DNA of 64,000 nt from Steroidobacteraceae bacterium (GTDB taxonomy: Bacteria; Pseudomonadota; Gammaproteobacteria; Steroidobacterales; Steroidobacteraceae), in the NCBI GenBank assembly GCA_035502995.1, contig DATJTW010000023.1, positions 53,445 through 117,444 on the forward strand. The letters run 5' to 3'. The notes under the pieces were generated by a model. It was not told where the DNA came from and searched no databases. It worked only from the letters and a program-made list of their open reading frames with translations. The position numbers and the translations under genes were made by a program. Below are positions 1-18,652 of the stretch, in pieces. Positions within the stretch are counted from its first letter, which is position 1; every line of letters starts with the position of its first letter.

Positions 1-2163
1 AAGGCGCTCGAAGAGCTGCTGCTCGCGCTGCGCCAGGCGCGCGACTACCACCTGCGCGTGCGCGAAGCCGGCGCGCTGCAGGGCCTCGGCGAGGCCTACC
101 AGAACCGCGGCGACACGTTGCAGACGCGCACGTACTTCACCGACGCGCTGGCCATCATGCGCGAGCAGGACGACATCCAGGGCTACGTCTGGGGCCTGGC
201 ATCCGCCGGCATCGTCGCGCGCGAGGAGGGCGACTACGCCGCCGCGATCAAACTACACGAGGAGGCCGTGCGCCTCGCGTTCAACCCGATCGCGCAGGTG
301 CGCACCGCGCGCGAGCTCGGGCTCGACTACTTCGCGCAGCAGGACTATCCGAAGTCCATCGCGGCGTATCGCCAGGGTCTCGCCGTCAAGCTGCAGGATC
401 CGAAACACCACGCGTACAGCGACGTGAAGCGCAATCTGGCGCAATCGCTGATCGATGCCGACGACGGCTCCGGCGCCGCGCTCGGCGAGGCGTCGAAGCT
501 CATCGACGAGACGCTCGAGAGCTCGCTGAAAGTCGGCGACCGCCTCGGCATCATCGGCGCGCACCGCACGCGTGCGAACCTGTTCGCCGCGCAGGGCAAG
601 TCCGAGCAGGCGATGGCCGAATACGCGAAGGCGTTCGATCTCTGCCGCGAGTACCGCGAGCAGAGCGTGAACTCCGACGCCCGCCGCACGACGCTCGTCC
701 ACGAGACGCTGGCGCTGCGCGGCTACCTGGACGCGGCGCTGCGCGACGTGGTGGCGCGCGGTGCGACGCCGCCACGTCCCGCGTCGAAGCGCGAAGAGGC
801 CGCGCTGTACACGCTCGAACGCGTGCGCGACACGTACTTCGGCCCGGCGCGCACCGGCGAGCTCGATGCCGCGACCAGCGCGCGCGTCGACTTGCTGCTG
901 CAGCAGATGGCGGACAAGAGCGTGAAGATCGCGACGCTGCTTCGTGGCGAAAAGACGCCCGACCAGGTCGCCGCGCTGGCGCAGGCCCAGTCGGACATGT
1001 CGGACCTGCACGCGGAGCTCGACCAGTTGCGCACCACCGCAGCGAAGGCGCGCGTCGCCTCGACCGAGCCGAAGGCGCCGTCGGCGAAGACGCTGCGGCC
1101 GTTGCCCGCGGGCGCGGTGCAGGTGTCGTACGCGCTCGGCAACCGGCACGCGTTCGTCTGGGTGCGCAGCCCGAAGGGCGTCAACGTGGCGATGCTCTCC
1201 AAGGCGCCGCGCGAGCTCGAGCGAGAGCTGATCGCGTTGAGCGCGCTGAGCCCGCAGTCGCAGTCGGCGGACGTCGAGCGCTCGCTGGCGGCGGTGTCGG
1301 CCGAACTACTGCCGCCGGGACTGTTGCCCGCGGACTCGACCGCCGTGGAGATCGTCGCCGAAGGCCGCATTGCCGGCGTGCCGTTCGCCGGTCTCGCGTC
1401 GCCGACGCAGCCGGCGAAGCGCCTGGTCGAGACGCACGCGCTGACGATGATCACGTCGCTGTACTCGGTCGATCAGCGTCCGCGCGTGCAGCAGGCGCGG
1501 CCGTTCCGGCTGGTCGCATTGGCCAGCGGCACGAGCGGCCTGCGCGCGGTGCCGGTGGTCAATCCGACCGCCAAACTACAGGCCGCGACCAGTGAGGTCC
1601 GCGCCGTCGCCGACCTGTTCTCCGCGCGCGACCCGGCCGCGAACATCCGCCTGATGGTTGCGCCCGAGGGCAATGCCGCGGACCTGCACCGGATCTGGAG
1701 CAGCGGCGCGGACGTCGTCCACTTCGCCACGCACGCGCTGGCGGACCTGCGCCAGCCGCTGGCGTCGTTGCTGGTGTTGCCGGCGACCGGCGAGGGCGGC
1801 ACGGCTACCTACCTGACGGCCGGCCAGGTCGAAGGCTGGCGCGGCGACGCCGAGCTCGTGTTCCTCAGCGCCTGCGACAGCGCCATCGGCCCGCCGCGTT
1901 ACGCGGGCGGCATGCCCGGCCTGCAACGCGCGTTCCTGCGCGCCGGCGCCCGCGGTGTCATCGCGACGCTGTGGCCGATCGAGGACGTGATGGCGCAGGA
2001 ATTCTCGGCGGATTTCTACCGGCGCTACACGCAGGGCGCGACGGCCGCACAGGCGCTGGGCGAGACGCAGCGCGCGTGGCTCGCGCCCGCGCCGGGCAGG
2101 AGCGACGCGGAGCAGGCACGCCGGCGCATCACCGCGCTGGCGCACGGGTTCTACACGCTATAG
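1..2163 (+). CDS. TPR-repeat / CHAT-domain (caspase-like) protein; 5' end cut by window edge
   Basis: Frame 1 is open from nt 1 into track ORF 58..2163. N-terminal TPR-like repeats (LGEAYQNRGDTLQTRTYFTDALAI, GLASAGIVAREEGDYAAAIKLHEEAV). C-terminal CHAT signature with His/Cys dyad (VVHFATHAL ... LVFLSACDSA). Confidence 0.8.
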   Translation, partial: KALEELLLALRQARDYHLRVREAGALQGLGEAYQNRGDTLQTRTYFTDALAIMREQDDIQGYVWGLASAGIVAREEGDYAAAIKLHEEAVRLAFNPIAQVRTARELGLDYFAQQDYPKSIAAYRQGLAVKLQDPKHHAYSDVKRNLAQSLIDADDGSGAALGEASKLIDETLESSLKVGDRLGIIGAHRTRANLFAAQGKSEQAMAEYAKAFDLCREYREQSVNSDARRTTLVHETLALRGYLDAALRDVVARGATPPRPASKREEAALYTLERVRDTYFGPARTGELDAATSARVDLLLQQMADKSVKIATLLRGEKTPDQVAALAQAQSDMSDLHAELDQLRTTAAKARVASTEPKAPSAKTLRPLPAGAVQVSYALGNRHAFVWVRSPKGVNVAMLSKAPRELERELIALSALSPQSQSADVERSLAAVSAELLPPGLLPADSTAVEIVAEGRIAGVPFAGLASPTQPAKRLVETHALTMITSLYSVDQRPRVQQARPFRLVALASGTSGLRAVPVVNPTAKLQAATSEVRAVADLFSARDPAANIRLMVAPEGNAADLHRIWSSGADVVHFATHALADLRQPLASLLVLPATGEGGTATYLTAGQVEGWRGDAELVFLSACDSAIGPPRYAGGMPGLQRAFLRAGARGVIATLWPIEDVMAQEFSADFYRRYTQGATAAQALGETQRAWLAPAPGRSDAEQARRRITALAHGFYTL

Positions 2164-13349: not shown

Positions 13350-13607
13350 GATCCCGCAAGCATGGCCGAAGGGCCGTTCGTTACCTGTCGAAAAGTGTAG
13401 CCCCGGGACCGCACACAATTTGACGAATTCTCTCAACGTTGGCGACAGACCCGTCGCCGGGCGCCCGGTTAGGTTGGCGACACCGGGGCGCAAGCCCGAC
13501 TGGGTTCGCGGCCGAGATCGACCCATCCAGCCGCTTACCGCGCGGAGCGGGCCTCGTGCCCGCTCCGCCGTCCAAACGGCGGGCTCGGCGCGCGCCCGCC
13601 GTCACGT

Positions 13608-14147
13608 ATGCTTCGGCCCATGAACACCACGAAGCTCGCCGCGCTGGTCGCGGCCGTTCTTGCGTTCTCCGTCGTCTCCACCGCCGCCGAGAAGGCGCGC
13701 GAGCTGCCCTACGCGGCCGGCAATCCGAACGGCGGCGTGCCGCTGTGGAATCCCGGCGAGCAGTTCGTCGCCGTGTCCGGCGGTGCCTGTTCCGGCAGCT
13801 GTCCCGTCTACGACCTCTACCTCTTCAGCGACGGCAAGGTCATCTTCTCCGGCCGCAAGTTCACCAACAAGACGGGCGTGCTGACGAAGATGATCTCGCC
13901 CGAGACCTACGCGTCGCTGCTGACGCTGATCGTGAACACCGACGTGCTCGACAAGAAGCTCAAGCGCGGCAGTTGTTTGTCAGGCCGCTCGATGCTGATG
14001 GTGATGCGCTCGACGCCGGACGGTCAGCGCATGCGCGTGCGCGATCTCAACTCGGGCTGCGAAGGACACGCGGACCTGGCGCGCGACATCGAGACGCGCT
14101 TCATCGAAGACACCGAGATCCAGAACTGGCTGGTGCCGAAGAAGTAG
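13608..14147 (+). CDS. secreted hypothetical protein (DUF6438-like)
   Basis: 179-aa ORF (alternative ATG at 13620) with a signal peptide. The motif CSGSCPVYDLYLFSDGKVIFSG resembles DUF6438 (recollection only). Confidence 0.55.
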   Translation: MLRPMNTTKLAALVAAVLAFSVVSTAAEKARELPYAAGNPNGGVPLWNPGEQFVAVSGGACSGSCPVYDLYLFSDGKVIFSGRKFTNKTGVLTKMISPETYASLLTLIVNTDVLDKKLKRGSCLSGRSMLMVMRSTPDGQRMRVRDLNSGCEGHADLARDIETRFIEDTEIQNWLVPKK

Positions 14148-14151
14148 CCAC

Positions 14152-15261
14152 TCAACGGATCGTGAGTGCGATCTCCTCGGAGTGGAAGTTCGCCTCGCGG
14201 CTGGCGATGCGCAAAGTCCCGCTCGACCGGCGCAACGCCGCCGCCGGCACCACCATGTGCAACGACGCCGCGCGCGCGAACGACAACTCGCGCCAGTGTT
14301 CGTCGCCGTGCGGGCGATACAGCGCCACCGCGTTGATGCAGAACGCCGAGCGGTAACGCAGCCGCCACGACAGCAACGCGTCGTTCAGCGACGACCACTG
14401 CATCGACCGCGCCTCGCTGGCGATCTCGATCGGACCCTGCACGGCGTCGGCGACGTTCAGCGCGCGCACGCCCGGACACGCCGCCTCGATGCGCGGATGC
14501 GCGACCGCGCTCAGCAGCAGGTGCTCGCGCAGCTCGTGGTAACCCCAGCCGGGGTTCAGCGACTTGATCAACGCCGCGCAGCCGCTGACGTACGGCGCGC
14601 CGATCGCCGCGTGCGTGCGCGTGACGTGACCGGTGCCGCGCCAGTGCGGCACGCGCGCGAAGCCGGGCGCGGCGATGTCGGCGGCGCAGTCGGCGAGCGG
14701 CTGGAACTCCTCGTCGACGGACAGCACGGTGACCAGATTGGGCGGCGGACCTTCGTCATCGGAACGCACGGCGGCGCGCGGCCGCGCGGCGCAGACGACG
14801 AGTACGTTGCGCGTGGCCGCGTACTGCACGGCGCGGCGGACCGCGCTCGTGCCCATCTCCGCGTCGTGGCCGACGTTGACGATGTGCGCGCCCATCTCGA
14901 CGGCGTACTCGATGGCGTGCGCGAGATCGAACGCCTGCGCGCCGGGATCGGTGCGGTAGCGCACGGGCAGGATGCGTGCCTCGGGAGCGACGCCGGAGAA
15001 ATCCGCCGCGTCGCTGGCGCGGCCCGCGGCAACGCCCGCGGCATGCGTTCCCGCGATGTCGTGTTCGCCGGCGGCGTGTGGCGGATGCGCGGGATCGTGC
15101 TGGAGGTTGGCGCCGAGCAGCGGGTGATCGAGCTGCACGCCCTGGTCGACGATCGCAATGAGCACGGTCGCACTGCCGCGTGTTCTCTGCCACGCGCGTT
15201 CGACGCCCAACCAGTCGAAGGCGGTGCCGAAGCGGCCCGGATCGGCCGCAGCGTTGATCAT
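14152..15261 (-). CDS. subtilase (S8)-fold protein with degenerate catalytic site (pseudo-protease) plus C-terminal extension
   Basis: Track ORF 14152..15882 trimmed to ATG 15261 (369 aa). It aligns block by block with subtilisin: IAIVDQG (Asp32 kept), DIAGTHAAG (His64 position is Ala), LVVCAARP (Asn155 position is Pro), HAAIGAPYVSG (Ser221 position is Ala). No signal peptide. Confidence 0.7.
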   Translation of the reverse strand: MINAAADPGRFGTAFDWLGVERAWQRTRGSATVLIAIVDQGVQLDHPLLGANLQHDPAHPPHAAGEHDIAGTHAAGVAAGRASDAADFSGVAPEARILPVRYRTDPGAQAFDLAHAIEYAVEMGAHIVNVGHDAEMGTSAVRRAVQYAATRNVLVVCAARPRAAVRSDDEGPPPNLVTVLSVDEEFQPLADCAADIAAPGFARVPHWRGTGHVTRTHAAIGAPYVSGCAALIKSLNPGWGYHELREHLLLSAVAHPRIEAACPGVRALNVADAVQGPIEIASEARSMQWSSLNDALLSWRLRYRSAFCINAVALYRPHGDEHWRELSFARAASLHMVVPAAALRRSSGTLRIASREANFHSEEIALTIR

Positions 15262-15323
15262 GTGGTTCCCTTGACCCTGGACGCAGAGGCTTCTCTGCGA
15301 CGAGCGGGCGCCCCGTGACAGGG

Positions 15324-15956
15324 TCAGGGCTTCAGGACGGCGAAATCCAGCGGTTCTTCGTCGGCGGACTGCTTGCGCACGCGCAGCGTGTAGGCGCCGG
15401 CCGGCAGGTCTTCGGAATCGAGCATGAATTCCAGCGTGACCGGCGAGCTCGGATGCTGGCCGTACAGCGTGGTCAGCGTCTCGGCCGGCTGCTGCTGGTC
15501 GGTGACCCGGTCGAGCGTGATGCTGTAGTTCGCCGCGACGTCGAACAACCCGACGATCTCGACGCGCATCACGGCGGAGCCCAGGTGCGGCACGGATTCC
15601 GCGCCGCGCACCTGCGCCAGCCGCAGCGACGGGCCGTTGCGCTGCGCCTCGGTGGAGACCGCGGCCATCAGCGCGCGTCCCAGCTTCGCCGACTGGTGCC
15701 ACCACGCCCAGGAGAACGCGCCCAGGGCCAGCACGATGCTGGCGGCGGCCGCGAACTTCCAGCGCGACTGGCCGTGGGAACGCACGAACTCCGCGGTGGA
15801 ACCGCGCGCGACCTGCGCGAGACCCGCGCGCAGCCGCTGCTCGAACTCGACGTTCTTCGCGAATTCCGGATTCGCGACGCAATAGGCCTCGAACTCCTCG
15901 GCGTCTTTGCCGACGAGCTTGCCCGAGACATATTGTTCAATCTGTTCCTGGTTCAT
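15324..15956 (-). CDS. anti-sigma factor, single-pass membrane protein
   Basis: Track ORF 15324..16076 trimmed to ATG 15956, which overlaps the sigma-factor stop (ATGA). Cytoplasmic N-domain of about 50 aa, then a TM helix WKFAAAASIVLALGAFSWAWW and a periplasmic C-domain. Confidence 0.7.
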   Translation of the reverse strand: MNQEQIEQYVSGKLVGKDAEEFEAYCVANPEFAKNVEFEQRLRAGLAQVARGSTAEFVRSHGQSRWKFAAAASIVLALGAFSWAWWHQSAKLGRALMAAVSTEAQRNGPSLRLAQVRGAESVPHLGSAVMRVEIVGLFDVAANYSITLDRVTDQQQPAETLTTLYGQHPSSPVTLEFMLDSEDLPAGAYTLRVRKQSADEEPLDFAVLKP

Positions 15957-16543
15957 CGATCGCTCAGCAGATCGCGCTTCGAGAAGCCGCGCTCCTCGAG
16001 GATCTGGCGGAAACGGCGGCGCGCCCGGCTCAAGGCCTGGTTGAACGCCGCTTCGGAAAGGTCGAGCTCCTGACAAATCATTTCCTTGTCATGATCGTCT
16101 AGATAGAACCGTTTGAGCATCAGGCGATCCCGGGGTTGCGGCAGCTCGCGAAGCAGCGCACGAACCGCGAGCGCAGCCTCGACATCGGCAGCCCACGCAT
16201 CGACGCTGCCGGCCGGATCCGCGTTCCGGTCGGTGGCATCGGTATCGACATCGGTTCTCTGTCGCTCGGCCTTCCGCAGTGACGCGATCGCGAGATTTCT
16301 TGCGGTCTGCGCCGCGAACGCGGCTAGTTTGCCCGGGTCGTCGATGCCACCGTTGCGCAGGCGCTGGAGGACGACTAACAGGGTCTCCTGCACGAGATCC
16401 TGGAGCAGGCCGTGGTCGCCGCCGGTCCGTCGTCGCAGGATGACGCGGAGTCCGGGCTCGAACTGACGAATGAGCTCGCTTTCGGCGCTGACGTCGCCTT
16501 CACGAATCCGGCGCGACAACTCGCCGCCTGGGACGAAATCCAT
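15953..16543 (-). CDS. ECF-type RNA polymerase sigma-70 family factor
   Basis: 196-aa ORF. Region 2 (LVQETLLVVLQRL) and region 4 HTH (MICQELDLSEAAFNQALSRARRRF). Confidence 0.88.
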   Translation of the reverse strand: MDFVPGGELSRRIREGDVSAESELIRQFEPGLRVILRRRTGGDHGLLQDLVQETLLVVLQRLRNGGIDDPGKLAAFAAQTARNLAIASLRKAERQRTDVDTDATDRNADPAGSVDAWAADVEAALAVRALLRELPQPRDRLMLKRFYLDDHDKEMICQELDLSEAAFNQALSRARRRFRQILEERGFSKRDLLSDR

Positions 16544-16623
16544 AACCCCCTGACCCCGGAACCTTCTGCTTGTCTACGGGCGGGGATTCTGCCACGTCCA
16601 TGGTCGGGACGTTCCCGCCGACG

Positions 16624-17871
16624 TCACACCTCGGGCGGGTGGATGGGCAGGCGGACGGTGAATGTCGTGCCGACGCCACTCTCGGTCACGAAATCGAGGC
16701 TGCCGTGGTGTCCCTTCACGATCACGTTTCGCGCGATGGACAGGCCTTGGCCCGTGCCCTTGCCGACGTCCTTGGTCGTGAAGAAGGGGTCGAAGACGCG
16801 GCCGCGGATCGATTCGGGGATGCCGCCGCCCGTGTCCTCGATCTCGACCCGCACGTGGTCGCCGTCGAGCTTCGTGCGGACGACGATGCGGCCGCGGCAG
16901 CCGGTGCGCCCGACGACCTCGGTGATGGCGTCCGCCGCGTTGACGATCAGGTTCAGCACGACCTGGTTGATCTGGCCGCCGTGGCAGGTGACGTCCGGCA
17001 GCGGCGTGAATTCGGTTTCGACGTCGGCGACCGCGGCGTATTCGCTGCGCGCGATCACCAGCGTGCTGTTGATGGCGCGGTTGAGGTCGACGCGGCCCAT
17101 CTCGTTCTGGTCGGCGTGCGAGAAATCCTTCAGCGAGCGCACGATCTCGGCGATGCGGCCGAGGCCGTCGGCGACGCGCTTCAGCGCCGGCGGCAGCTCC
17201 TCGCGCAGGTACTCGACGTCGTCGTTCGCTTCCGTCTTGTGGGTGGCGTGTAGTTTGTCGACGTACTCGAGCAGTTCCTGAACGCCTTCGCCGATGAACT
17301 TCACGCTGTCCGAGAGGTACTGGATCGGCGTGTTGATCTCGTGCGCGACGCCGCCCGCGAGGCGGCCGATGGATTCGTGGCGCTCGGCATTCGCCATGCG
17401 TTCTTCGGCGGCCTTGCGTTCGGTGATGTCGTAGCCCGTGCCGACGATGCCGGTGAGATTGCCGTCGGCATCGCGCAGCGGGACCTTCGAGGTCAGGATG
17501 ACGCGGTTCATCCCGCGCGTCTTGTCGTACGCGACTTCCTCGAGGTCGTACAGCGCCTCACCCGACTGGATGAGCGCCTGTTCGTCGGCGAAGAACTTCT
17601 CCGCCATCTCGCGCGGGAAGAAATCGAAATCGGTCTTGCCGATCAGGTCGTCCGGGTTCACGCCCATGCGGTTCGCGACCAGCTTGTTGGCGGCGGTGAA
17701 GCGGCTGTGCGCGTCCTTCGCGTAGATGAAGGCCGGGATGAGGTCGATCATCGTCCGCAGCACGGTGCGCTCGTGGGCCAGCGCGGAGGCGAGGTTCCGA
17801 CGCTGGCTGCTGCCGGAGTCGGCATCCTGGTCCAGGTCGTCCGGGGGGAGGCGGTTTGGCTGCGTATTCAC
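16624..17871 (-). CDS. cytoplasmic PAS-domain sensor histidine kinase
   Basis: 415-aa ORF without a TM segment. PAS region (LIPAFIYAKDAHSRFTAANKLVANRMG); H-box GVAHEINTPIQY; ATPase boxes LNLIVNAADA, IEDTGGGIP, GKGTGQGLSIAR. Confidence 0.9.
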   Translation of the reverse strand: MNTQPNRLPPDDLDQDADSGSSQRRNLASALAHERTVLRTMIDLIPAFIYAKDAHSRFTAANKLVANRMGVNPDDLIGKTDFDFFPREMAEKFFADEQALIQSGEALYDLEEVAYDKTRGMNRVILTSKVPLRDADGNLTGIVGTGYDITERKAAEERMANAERHESIGRLAGGVAHEINTPIQYLSDSVKFIGEGVQELLEYVDKLHATHKTEANDDVEYLREELPPALKRVADGLGRIAEIVRSLKDFSHADQNEMGRVDLNRAINSTLVIARSEYAAVADVETEFTPLPDVTCHGGQINQVVLNLIVNAADAITEVVGRTGCRGRIVVRTKLDGDHVRVEIEDTGGGIPESIRGRVFDPFFTTKDVGKGTGQGLSIARNVIVKGHHGSLDFVTESGVGTTFTVRLPIHPPEV

Positions 17872-17959
17872 GACCCTCGGGTAACGGCTTAGGGACCGAA
17901 AACTGAACGGGGTCGCCGGGAAAGCGGTACCGCATCACATGTGCGGTCGCGGTGGATAA

Positions 17960-18652
17960 CTACTTCAATTGGGACAATTCGAGCTGGTCGAACGTGACGT
18001 CGAAACCGGAGCCCTCCGGCGCCGCGCACATGACGCCGACCTCGACGGGAACGCCGGGCGGGAAGTACGCCTGGCGCACGGTCGTGTACTTCTCGCCGTC
18101 CTTCGAGCACTGCGCCTCGAGGGAATCCTTCTTGCGCAGGATGCGCCAGTAGACGGCGCCGTTCTGCGAGAGGTCTTCCATCGTCGACCAGTCCGAGAAA
18201 TCGTGCGTGACGACGACGCTGGCCCAGCGCTGTCCCTCGAAATATTCGGAGCCGCACTTGAGCCAGTGTTTTTCGTCGAGGCGGACCATGAGGCCGGCCT
18301 GGTCGTAGAGCTGCGAGTAGTTGCCGTTCACACGCGCCTGGAACATGAACTCGGCGCCGGCGGGGGCGTGCAGGAAATGGCCGTTGTCGGTGATGTAGCC
18401 GTAGAAGGTCTTGCGCCAGAAATCCGTCTTGCCCTTCGAGCGGGCGGTGATCGAGCCGGAGTCGTAGAACTCCTTGGCGGGCGGGTTGAGCCAGGTCATG
18501 CGGCTCAGCAGGTCGCCGCCGGCGCTCGGCGTGGTGCGCGCCGCGTCGTTCGCAGGCGCGGCGGAGGTCGTGGCGGCCGTGGCGATCGTAGCGGCCGACG
18601 CGGCGAGCGCGGCGCCCATGCCGTGGCCGAGGAACTGGCGGCGGGTCTTCAT
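17960..18652 (-). CDS. Tat-exported DUF1349-family protein (concanavalin-like fold)
   Basis: Track ORF 17960..19216 trimmed to ATG 18652 (230 aa). Tat signal MKTRRQFLGHGMGAALAASAA. DUF1349-like motifs WLNPP, DFWRKTFYGY, DNGHFL. The ATG overlaps the upstream stop (ATGA). Confidence 0.75.
   Translation of the reverse strand: MKTRRQFLGHGMGAALAASAATIATAATTSAAPANDAARTTPSAGGDLLSRMTWLNPPAKEFYDSGSITARSKGKTDFWRKTFYGYITDNGHFLHAPAGAEFMFQARVNGNYSQLYDQAGLMVRLDEKHWLKCGSEYFEGQRWASVVVTHDFSDWSTMEDLSQNGAVYWRILRKKDSLEAQCSKDGEKYTTVRQAYFPPGVPVEVGVMCAAPEGSGFDVTFDQLELSQLK

What the first reader, a model, noticed from the sequence alone, without database searches (positions are those of the whole stretch)
14152..16543. 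ECF sigma / anti-sigma operon ending in a catalytically dead, cytoplasmic subtilase homologue
Three co-oriented genes form the unit: ECF sigma (16543-15953), an anti-sigma whose ATG overlaps the sigma stop (ATGA), and, 62 nt further on, a 369-aa S8-fold protein. This protein aligns block by block with subtilisin BPN' but retains only Asp32 (IAIVDQG). The His64 position is Ala (SHGTHVAG versus IAGTHAAG). The oxyanion Asn155 position is Pro (VAAAGN versus VCAARP). Ser221 is Ala (GTSMASPHVAG versus HAAIGAPYVSG). It has no signal peptide and carries an extra C-terminal domain of about 100 aa. An intact ORF with a conserved fold but three of four catalytic residues replaced suggests a pseudo-enzyme retained for binding or regulation. 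It could be a third component of the sigma/anti-sigma switch or a decoy. I do not know of a described ECF group with such a partner.
Basis: partly seen in the sequence, partly recalled or inferred. Interest (0 to 1): 0.6.

Follow-up and report, generated by a model that had tools for sequence, protein, structure and literature searches.

The report
Dead subtilase tied to sigma/anti-sigma pair
A soil bacterium keeps a sigma factor, its membrane anti-sigma factor and a catalytically dead, cytoplasmic subtilisin-like protein as one conserved three-gene unit; the unit is a stripped-down descendant of a larger sigma/anti-sigma/caspase-like/subtilase cassette, and the dead protease's job is unknown.

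Summary
On the minus strand lie an ECF sigma gene (15953-16543), an anti-sigma gene overlapping it by ATGA (15324-15956) and, 62 nt on, a 369-aa S8-fold protein (14152-15261). That protein has no signal peptide and no propeptide. It keeps Asp32 but has Ala, Pro and Ala at the His64, Asn155 and Ser221 positions.

This is not recent decay:
- None of 120 homologues has the catalytic His, and none has a full triad.
- All are full length, and pN/pS is about 0.25 in the closest pairs.
- The three-gene order holds in all 17 related loci, all apparently from one uncultured Steroidobacteraceae genus.

What is new here:
- **Origin.** The closest active relative (39% identical, Tat-exported, intact triad) lies in a cassette of homologous anti-sigma, periplasmic TPR-CHAT, a small protein and the S8. 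The window's unit is a reduced derivative of that cassette.
- **Recurrent linkage.** 13 of 27 loci with related sigma factors in the family carry an adjacent clan-SB peptidase; 12 are S8 genes that retain His and Ser.
- **Possible promoter.** A fixed bipartite motif, TGTCAY-N12-YRTYGCAGA, precedes the dead gene in every locus and is unique in the genome.
- **Relaxed cleft.** The old substrate cleft evolves faster than the rest of the protein.

ECF-subtilase-CHAT linkage is already catalogued (ECF54), and this scan has noted such cassettes on other DNA. This dead, cytoplasmic variant has not been noted. The function is inferred, not shown.

The parts
15953..16543 (-). ECF (group 4) sigma-70 family factor, 196 aa
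   Evidence: Pfam Sigma70_r2 and Sigma70_r4_2 both score above their cut-offs. NCBIfam TIGR02937 scores 59.9 bits against a cut-off of 42.9, and no named subfamily reaches its cut-off. The best solved relative is M. tuberculosis SigL, E=1.3e-5. It is 76-92% identical across the 16 related loci.
16586..16594 (-). Conserved TGGCAGAAT, an extended -10-like box of housekeeping type, 43-51 nt upstream of the sigma start
   Evidence: An alignment of 17 upstream regions conserves only a [CT]A[GA][AG]AT core at this position. No conserved ECF-type -35/-10 pair is seen. That it is a promoter is inference.
15324..15956 (-). Single-pass anti-sigma-like protein, 210 aa. It has an N-terminal helical domain (about residues 1-50), a TM segment (about 68-86) and a periplasmic domain of about 120 aa.
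   Evidence: The ATGA overlap with sigma is visible directly in the sequence. The TM segment has a KD19 maximum of 1.57 at residue 68. A profile of 14 homologues hits the anti-SigL factor RslA (3hug_B) only weakly, E about 1. The hit falls exactly on the HxxxCxxC helix, where this protein reads Y..N..F. Pfam and NCBIfam give only sub-threshold hints.
15294..15320 (-). Conserved bipartite motif TGTCAC-N12-CGTCGCAGA in the anti-sigma/S8 spacer. It is a candidate dedicated promoter or operator.
   Evidence: It is present with fixed 12-nt spacing in the window and all 17 related loci. There is one exact copy in the 4.85-Mb genome, and one-mismatch copies do not exceed the control (13 against 10). 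The window count is no more than chance. The half-sites resemble the ECF41 promoter TGTCACA-n16-CGTC (PMC3426412), but the spacer is 5 nt shorter.
15282..15299 (-). Short inverted repeat CGCAGAG-N4-CTCTGCG directly after the motif
   Evidence: It is read from the sequence. The 3' arm is present in only part of the related loci. Its meaning is unknown.
14458..15261 (-). Pseudo-subtilase, S8-fold domain (residues 1-268). D39 is kept; A70, P161 and A219 occupy the His64, Asn155 and Ser221 positions.
   Evidence: Supported. The AlphaFold2 model built with a 56-sequence alignment has mean pLDDT 88 and pTM 0.89. The Foldseek top hits are subtilases, with E values from 1e-20 to 1e-15.
14155..14457 (-). 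C-terminal beta-sandwich domain of the pseudo-subtilase (residues 269-369). It contains the family-specific conserved loop R316-P-H-G-D-x-H-W-R-E-L326.
   Evidence: The model predicts 7-8 strands with pLDDT above 90. Mean column conservation is 0.79, as high as the catalytic domain. The domain is shared with active relatives P0130, P0162, P0210, P0190 and P0241. The loop is not shared with P0130.
14149..14168 (-). Weak terminator-like hairpin overlapping the S8 stop codon
   Evidence: It comes from a consensus scan only. Three such sites were found in the region against 2.8 expected, so it is not significant by itself.

Best explanation
The unit is an ECF sigma factor, its cognate single-pass, non-zinc anti-sigma factor, and a cytoplasmic subtilase that can no longer cleave.

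It descends from a larger cassette: sigma, anti-sigma, a periplasmic TPR-CHAT caspase-like protease, a small protein and a Tat-exported active subtilase. In this lineage the CHAT and small genes were lost. The subtilase lost its export signal, its propeptide and three of its four catalytic residues, yet it stayed under purifying selection next to the pair.

Most likely working (inferred, not shown):
- The sigma/anti-sigma genes are read from a housekeeping-type promoter.
- The dead subtilase is read mainly from its own conserved promoter-like element in the 62-nt spacer. That would make it the single dedicated target of this sigma, as ECF41 sigma factors have one neighbouring target.
- Its product acts without catalysis, as a binding or scaffold protein. 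It would use surfaces other than the old substrate cleft, plausibly the conserved C-terminal beta-sandwich.

Shown: gene structure, dead active site, family-wide conservation, selection, linkage, evolutionary origin, the motif and its uniqueness.

Inferred: that the motif is a promoter read by this sigma; what the protein binds.
For: - **Dead site across the family.**
- **Cytoplasmic.** There is no signal peptide and no room for one upstream.
- **Purifying selection.** In the closest pairs pN/pS is 0.095/0.37 and 0.10/0.39, and all 12 ORFs examined are intact.
- **Linkage.** The trio keeps the same order in 17 of 17 related loci, including two that have lost the upstream PAS kinase gene.
- **Origin.** In the tree the pseudo family (support 100/100) is sister to active P0130/P0392 (97/83). 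P0130 has a twin-arginine signal, a propeptide and intact D/H/N/S. It lies downstream of an anti-sigma 30% identical to the window's (E=4e-23), a signal-peptide-bearing TPR-CHAT with an intact His/Cys dyad, and a small protein.
- **Recurrent linkage.** 12 of 27 loci with related sigma genes have an adjacent S8 gene by my HMM, all 12 retaining His and Ser. L040 adds an S53/S8-like protein found by Pfam, making 13.
- **Motif.** Fixed spacing in all loci and unique in the genome. It has ECF-like TGTCAC and CGTC boxes. No ECF-like motif is conserved upstream of sigma.
- **Cleft relaxed.** Cleft positions average 0.59 against 0.77 for the domain, lower than all 5000 random position sets. In a mostly active S8 control set the values are 0.55 against 0.51.
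Against: - The spacing between TGTCAC and CGTC is 12 nt. That is 4-5 nt shorter than in known ECF promoters (16-17 nt), so the motif may be an operator or an RNA element instead.
- No terminator separates anti-sigma from the S8 gene, so read-through co-transcription is equally possible.
- All carriers seem to belong to one genus. Flanking genes are syntenic too, so conserved order partly reflects shared ancestry.
- Distance covariation of the S8 with sigma (0.42) or anti-sigma (0.32) is no stronger than with some flanking genes (0.33, 0.28).
- Cleft positions are surface positions, and burial was not controlled for in the conservation comparison.
- The ancestral cassette rests on one metagenomic contig (L067) that lacks the sigma gene, plus one shorter contig (L068).
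Confidence: 0.4

Rival explanations
1. The dead subtilase is a true third regulatory component. It is co-transcribed with sigma and anti-sigma and binds the cytoplasmic anti-sigma domain or the sigma factor itself, as co-anti-sigma, anti-anti-sigma or stabiliser. It thereby tunes release of sigma.
For: - Invariant adjacency, a 60-110-nt spacer and no predicted terminator.
- Retention under purifying selection after loss of export and catalysis. That is hard to explain for a former secreted degradative enzyme.
- Its active sister lies in a cassette whose other parts resemble the DdvA/DdvS protease-gated switch.
- Partial distance correlations with sigma (0.42) and anti-sigma (0.32) are positive.
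- Subtilisin-like pseudoproteases acting as signalling proteins have a precedent in CspC and CspA of Clostridioides difficile (PMC6636752, PMC7200643).
Against: - There is no direct evidence of an interaction.
- The covariation is no stronger than with flanking genes.
- The ancestral enzyme worked in the periplasm, so a cytoplasmic partner would be a new acquisition.
- The old cleft is relaxed.
- The conserved motif suggests separate control.
Confidence: 0.3
2. The linkage is historical only. The relic subtilase has taken on a new function unrelated to the sigma/anti-sigma pair and stays adjacent because the whole region is syntenic within one genus.
For: - LysE, HAD, orf17960 and the PAS kinase are syntenic in nearly all loci too.
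- The three congeneric genomes that lack the trio also lack the neighbouring kinase and orf17960.
- No specific covariation was found.
Against: - Linkage of this S8 clade with this anti-sigma clade predates the family. In L067 the S8 is 39% identical and the anti-sigma 30% identical.
- Synteny breaks immediately downstream of the S8 gene but never between it and the anti-sigma gene. The trio also survives loss of the kinase gene in L011 and L012.
Confidence: 0.15
3. The protein is still a hydrolase that uses non-canonical residues, for example the retained Asp39 and His73, or Ser at position 219 in some members.
For: Asp39 is kept in 119 of 120 members and the second His of the GTH motif in 117 of 120. 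Ten members have Ser at the Ser221 position.
Against: No member has the general-base His, and none combines D, H and S. The oxyanion position is hypervariable. The cleft strands are poorly conserved. The nucleophile position is Ala in 102 of 120 members.
Confidence: 0.05

Closest known systems
ECF54-type gene context (Huang et al. 2015; Casas-Pastor et al. 2021; reviewed in PMC8999054)
   Same: An ECF sigma factor is conserved next to subtilase and CHAT-domain proteins. Control by proteolysis is proposed but untested. The sister cassette L067 and the paralogous cassette on contig C11 of this genome have sigma and/or anti-sigma plus TPR-CHAT plus S8.
   Different: ECF54 is actinobacterial and is described as lacking an anti-sigma factor. 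Here there is a membrane anti-sigma, the host is a gammaproteobacterium, the window's unit has no CHAT gene, and the subtilase is dead. Sequence membership of the sigma in ECF54 could not be tested because no ECF Hub models were available.
DdvS/DdvA of Myxococcus xanthus (PMC11506125)
   Same: An ECF sigma is held by a single-pass anti-sigma whose inactivation is proposed to start with a periplasmic TPR-CHAT protease and continue with RseP. The ancestral-type cassette L067 has the same parts.
   Different: In DdvA the TPR-CHAT is fused to the anti-sigma. In L067 it is a separate secreted protein, and in the window it is absent. DdvA has a CHCC zinc site, whereas this anti-sigma has Y/N/F at the zinc positions. 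There is no subtilase in the Ddv model and no defence genes here. PADLOC gives only a generic subtilase hit.
CspC and CspA pseudoproteases of Clostridioides difficile (PMC6636752, PMC7200643)
   Same: They are bacterial subtilisin-fold proteins that lost catalytic residues yet are retained as signalling components.
   Different: They are Firmicute spore proteins acting on germination, not linked to ECF sigma factors. They do not appear among the 60 listed of 129 PDB sequence matches, nor among the top 50 structural matches. Here the protein has no propeptide and is cytoplasmic in a Gram-negative host.
ECF41 sigma factors and their single neighbouring target (PMC3426412)
   Same: The sigma is not obviously autoregulated, and one adjacent gene is preceded by a conserved motif with TGTCAC(A) and CGTC boxes.
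   Different: ECF41 proteins carry a C-terminal SnoaL-like extension and have no anti-sigma. Their spacer is 16 +/- 1 nt after TGTCACA, against 11 nt here. Their targets are COE enzymes, not a pseudo-protease.
SigL/RslA of Mycobacterium tuberculosis (PDB 6dv9, 3hug)
   Same: These are the best solved sequence relatives of the sigma (E=1.3e-5) and, weakly, of the anti-sigma N-terminal helix (E about 1).
   Different: RslA is a zinc-binding HxxxCxxC anti-sigma, and the motif is degenerate here. No protease partner is described for that pair, to my knowledge.

Membership tests
Peptidase S8 (subtilase) fold family | Sequence match to the Pfam PF00082 profile above the gathering score, and a subtilisin fold | tested here: met
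   The score is 83.4 bits against a cut-off of 21.8. The AF2 model has pLDDT 88, and Foldseek E values to subtilases range from 1e-20 to 1e-15.
Peptidase S8 (active enzyme) | Asp-His-Ser catalytic triad plus the oxyanion Asn | tested here: not met
   D39 is present, but His64 is Ala, Asn155 is Pro and Ser221 is Ala. None of 120 homologues has His.
Peptidase S8 (secreted zymogen architecture) | Signal peptide and an N-terminal propeptide | tested here: not met
   The protein starts at the equivalent of the mature N-terminus. There is no hydrophobic N-terminus. The upstream frame is closed within a few codons in relatives. The sister P0130 has both features.
ECF (group 4) sigma factors | [quoted passage not shown] | tested here: met
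   PF04542 scores 35.5 against 24, and PF08281 scores 25.8 against 25.7. TIGR02937 scores 59.9 against 42.9. The 196-aa length leaves no room for regions 1.1 or 3.
ECF54 group | Membership of the sigma sequence in the ECF54 clade or HMM | not testable with these tools
   No ECF Hub models or ECF54 sequences were available. The supplements of PMC7826278 are not held.
ECF54 group | No co-encoded anti-sigma factor; actinobacterial host | tested here: not met
   A single-pass anti-sigma-like gene overlaps the sigma stop. Related records are labelled Steroidobacteraceae or Proteobacteria.
ECF54 group | Conserved neighbours with subtilase, CHAT and carboxypeptidase domains | tested here: inconclusive
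   A subtilase neighbour is present but dead. There is no CHAT or carboxypeptidase in the unit. CHAT is present in the sister and paralogous cassettes.
Class I (ASD) anti-sigma factors, ZAS subtype | N-terminal anti-sigma domain helices with the HxxxCxxC zinc motif | tested here: not met
   The profile aligns to the RslA motif helix, but the residues are Y, N and F. The ASD assignment itself is weak: E about 1 in PDB, 0.02-0.04 in Pfam and NCBIfam.
Class I (ASD) anti-sigma factors, general | Gene directly downstream of, and coupled to, the sigma gene; one TM segment; short cytoplasmic N-terminal helical domain | tested here: met
   The ATGA overlap is seen. The TM segment lies at about residues 68-86. 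The conserved N-terminal 50 residues are shared with paralogues that follow related sigma genes.
DdvA-type TPR-CHAT anti-sigma factors | Periplasmic TPR-CHAT domain fused to the anti-sigma | tested here: not met
   The periplasmic part is only about 120 aa with no CHAT match. CHAT is a separate gene in L067 and on contig C11.
Csp-type subtilisin pseudoproteases | Homology to the CspA/B/C clade, a retained prodomain, and a spore context | tested here: not met
   No Csp chain appears among the 60 listed of 129 PDB sequence matches, nor among the top 50 structural matches. There is no prodomain. The host is a Gram-negative non-sporulating lineage, judging by the record labels.

The most novel reading that the evidence does not exclude
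The dead subtilase is a working part of the switch. It would bind the sigma/anti-sigma complex, or a cleaved anti-sigma fragment, through its conserved C-terminal beta-sandwich and set the threshold or duration of sigma release. If so, the subtilase modules in the widespread, untested ECF/CHAT/subtilase cassettes (ECF54-type and relatives in several phyla) would have a regulatory role that does not need catalysis. This reduced three-gene unit would then be the simplest system in which to show it.
Probability: 0.25. Interest if true: 0.7.

Novelty: new variant of a known kind. Interest (0 to 1): 0.45.

Why it matters
ECF sigma factors encoded next to subtilase and CHAT proteases are catalogued, but no such system has been tested. 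It is unknown whether the proteases are regulators or products.

This locus is a natural reduction experiment. The caspase-like protease and the small protein have gone, and the subtilase has lost export and catalysis. It is nevertheless kept, under selection, directly behind the anti-sigma gene. That suggests the subtilase module does something that does not need cleavage. It also offers a minimal three-protein system that could be rebuilt in a laboratory host.

It adds a Gram-negative, cytoplasmic example to the very short list of bacterial subtilisin-fold pseudoenzymes.

The limits are real. The family is confined to one uncultured soil genus, and its function is not known.

Tried and rejected
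- **Single-sequence structure prediction.** It gave an unusable model (pLDDT 34) and was replaced by an alignment-based model.
- **Genome-wide motif search.** There is one exact copy. One-mismatch copies do not exceed the reversed-pattern control (13 against 10), so no wider regulon could be defined. No like motif was found in the paralogous cassette or in L067 and L068.
- **Shared promoter idea.** I considered that the sigma-upstream box and the S8-upstream box were one shared promoter type. I rejected this after anchoring the alignments, because only 'GCAGA' is shared and the sigma box is a housekeeping-type -10.
- **Rfam scan of 13400-18000.** It found nothing relevant.
- **Distance covariation of the S8 with sigma or anti-sigma against flanking genes.** The result was inconclusive.
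- **Unit gain or loss among congeners.** The three genomes without the trio also lack the flanking kinase and orf17960, so the test is uninformative.
- **More P0130-type cassettes.** None turned up in 400 gammaproteobacterial genomes (the tool warned that an empty answer shows nothing). The metagenome scan gave only one distant locus.
- **Promoter of the paralogous CHAT operon.** I did not reach the true gene start and abandoned the attempt.
- **HGDEH as an inverted zincin motif (HxxEH).** Rejected, because the Glu is not conserved and the segment is a predicted loop.
- **The TPR-CHAT gene at window 1-2163.** It is only 27% identical to the cassette CHATs and is near the trio in just one other locus, so it is not part of the unit.
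- **ECF group classification.** The supplements are not held, and a sigma homologue search returned only orthologues.
Full report
**What is there.** On the minus strand of this 68-70% G+C window lie three genes. They are a 196-aa sigma factor (15953-16543), a 210-aa protein whose ATG overlaps the sigma stop in ATGA (15324-15956), and, after 62 nt, a 369-aa protein (14152-15261).

The first has sigma-70 regions 2 and 4 and matches the ECF superfamily model above its cut-off. No named subfamily reaches its cut-off. The nearest solved relative is SigL of M. tuberculosis.

The second has a conserved helical N-terminus of about 50 residues, one hydrophobic segment (about 68-86) and about 120 residues beyond it. 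A profile of 14 homologues touches only the anti-SigL factor RslA, weakly (E about 1). The hit falls exactly on the zinc-motif helix, where this protein reads Y, N and F instead of H, C and C. Its assignment as an anti-sigma rests on position, architecture and these weak matches.

**The subtilase homologue is catalytically dead, and so is its whole family.** Pfam Peptidase_S8 matches residues 32-252 (E=2e-23). Alignments to AK.1 protease and thermitase, and an HMM alignment including subtilisin BPN', agree on four positions:
- D39 aligns with Asp32.
- A70 aligns with His64.
- P161 aligns with Asn155.
- A219 aligns with Ser221.

Among 120 homologues (60-78% identical, 340-383 aa), the Asp is kept in 119. 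The His position is P, A, S, G or L and never His. The Ser position is Ala in 102 and Ser in 10. No member has a full triad.

In the closest orthologue pairs pN/pS is about 0.25, and all 12 ORFs examined are intact. So the gene is under purifying selection and is not decaying.

The protein has no signal peptide or membrane segment. In relatives the frame closes within a few codons upstream of the conserved Met.

An alignment-based AlphaFold2 model (pLDDT 88, pTM 0.89) shows a subtilisin fold plus a C-terminal beta-sandwich. Foldseek finds subtilases, including those with extra beta domains.

**Distribution and linkage.** Sixteen species-level genome loci, plus one more from the genome search, carry sigma, anti-sigma and pseudo-subtilase in the same order. 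Their records are labelled Steroidobacteraceae or unclassified Proteobacteria.

In a sample of 200 genomes of the family, the pseudo-subtilase was found in 5 of 8 other genomes of the window's genus and in 0 of 192 genomes of 39 other genera. The orthologous sigma (at least 76% identical) was found in exactly the same genomes. This co-occurrence is not independent evidence, because the three congeners without the trio also lack the flanking kinase and orf17960.

Two observations are more telling. Gene order upstream (LysE, HAD, orf17960, PAS kinase) is conserved, but synteny breaks immediately after the S8 gene. And the trio stays intact in two loci that have lost the kinase gene.

**Where it came from.** A search of 1.8 billion cluster representatives shows the family to be one isolated cluster. 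The next full-length relative, P0130, is only 39% identical.

P0130 and its relative P0392 have a twin-arginine signal, a propeptide, intact D/H/N/S and the same C-terminal domain. In a maximum-likelihood tree the pseudo family (support 100/100) is sister to P0130/P0392 (97/83), within a clade that also holds another intact enzyme (100/98).

On its contig P0130 is the last gene of a run:
- A partial anti-sigma, 30% identical to the window's over 178 residues including the periplasmic part (E=4e-23).
- A 1111-aa TPR-CHAT protein with a signal peptide and an intact His/Cys dyad.
- A 205-aa protein of no known family.
- P0130 itself.

The window's unit therefore has the gene order of this cassette, with the CHAT and small genes removed and the subtilase stripped of export signal, propeptide and catalytic residues.

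The theme recurs. The window's own genome has a paralogous sigma (45-49% identical) on another contig, in the order TPR-CHAT, small secreted protein, secreted S8, sigma, anti-sigma.

Of 27 loci with sigma homologues across the family, 12 have an S8 gene directly adjacent. All 12 retain His and Ser, and the N-termini I read look like signal peptides. A thirteenth, L040, has an S53/S8-like 966-aa protein. These 13 fall into about five or six arrangement types, so they are not 13 independent events.

**Regulatory sequence.** The spacer before the dead gene holds TGTCAC-N12-CGTCGCAGA (15294-15320). It is conserved with fixed spacing in all 18 loci. It is present once in the 4.85-Mb genome, and near-matches do not exceed the control.

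TGTCAC(A) and CGTC are the -35 and -10 boxes of ECF41 promoters, whose sigma factors have a single neighbouring target (PMC3426412). Here, however, the spacer is 5 nt shorter, which is atypical for any ECF promoter I know.

Upstream of sigma, the only conserved element is a housekeeping-type -10-like box (TGGCAGAAT). No terminator is predicted between anti-sigma and the S8 gene. A weak one overlaps the S8 stop.

Both an internal sigma-dependent promoter and read-through remain possible. Transcript data could not be consulted.

**What the protein may do.** Positions equivalent to the subtilisin substrate cleft are the least conserved part of the domain. Their mean is 0.59 against 0.77, lower than all 5000 random position sets. 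In a mostly active control set they are slightly above average (0.55 against 0.51).

The C-terminal domain is as conserved as the core (0.79). It carries a family-specific conserved loop, RPHGDxHWREL, that the active sister lacks. This argues against a decoy or substrate trap that uses the old cleft. It favours a scaffold or binding role through other surfaces.

Distance covariation with sigma (0.42) and anti-sigma (0.32) is positive. It is no stronger than with some flanking genes, whereas the sigma/anti-sigma pair itself gives 0.63.

**Verdict on mechanism.** My estimates are:
- About 0.4 that the gene is the sigma's dedicated, non-catalytic product.
- About 0.3 that it is a third regulatory component.
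- About 0.15 that the linkage is only historical.
- About 0.05 that there is cryptic activity.

A former secreted degradative enzyme that lost export and catalysis would be expected to decay. Its retention next to the pair is the main argument that it matters to the switch or its output.

**Comparison with what is known.** ECF sigma factors with subtilase, CHAT and carboxypeptidase neighbours are catalogued as ECF54. They are proposed, without tests, to be controlled by proteolysis (PMC8999054; PMC7826278). That group is actinobacterial and lacks an anti-sigma.

DdvA/DdvS shows how a periplasmic TPR-CHAT can gate an anti-sigma (PMC11506125). CspC and CspA show that dead subtilases can be signalling proteins.

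Notes of this scan record sigma/CHAT/S8 cassettes in Zixibacteria, Acidobacteriota and Actinomycetota. They record none for this family or locus.

I therefore class it as a new variant of a known kind. It is a reduced, proteobacterial sigma/anti-sigma unit with a conserved, cytoplasmic, dead subtilase.

Noticed in passing
own genome, contig C11 (L037 3663-9928 and L043 1377-3869): A paralogous cassette lies on one strand: two tandem TPR-CHAT genes, a 187-aa secreted protein of no known family, a secreted S8 with D/H/S intact but no oxyanion Asn, an ECF sigma (45-49% identical to the window's) and an anti-sigma. Orthologous cassettes occur in other genomes of the genus (L042, L045, L046, L048).
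   Followed up: partly
L040 2137-5697 (genome G161, another genus of the family): A sigma 47% identical to the window's is followed directly by a 966-aa protein. That protein has a pro-kumamolisin activation domain, an S8/S53-like domain and a weak nucleoside-phosphorylase-like match, with no anti-sigma between them. A prolyl oligopeptidase gene lies upstream.
   Followed up: no
window 16624-17871 (-): A 415-aa PAS histidine kinase with no adjacent receiver ends 80 nt before the sigma gene. It is conserved there in 14 of 16 related loci but lost in L011 and L012. Any link to the sigma unit is untested.
   Followed up: partly
window 1-2163 (+): A truncated TPR-CHAT gene with an intact HFATHA / SACDS dyad sits at the window edge. 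It is only 27% identical to the cassette CHATs and is near the trio in only one other locus (L016).
   Followed up: partly
window 13608-14147 (+): A 179-aa protein with a Sec-type signal peptide converges on the pseudo-subtilase gene, ending 5 nt from its stop. In L001 its homologue lies 3.4 kb away, so the adjacency is not conserved.
   Followed up: partly
L001 and L014: The sigma gene (L001) and the anti-sigma and S8 genes (L014) are split into several frames in these MFD-series assemblies. These are probably assembly frameshifts rather than pseudogenes.
   Followed up: no
database proteins P0136, P0142, P0164: Some public 'proteins' of this locus are wrong-frame or frameshift-fused translations. 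P0142, for example, joins anti-sigma and S8 sequence with Arg-rich out-of-frame stretches. They should not be read as natural fusions.
   Followed up: no
L067 3942-4559 and L068 412-1020: The small protein between CHAT and the active S8 is well conserved between the two metagenomic contigs. It has no Pfam match, no signal peptide and no detectable similarity to the small protein of the paralogous cassette on C11.
   Followed up: partly
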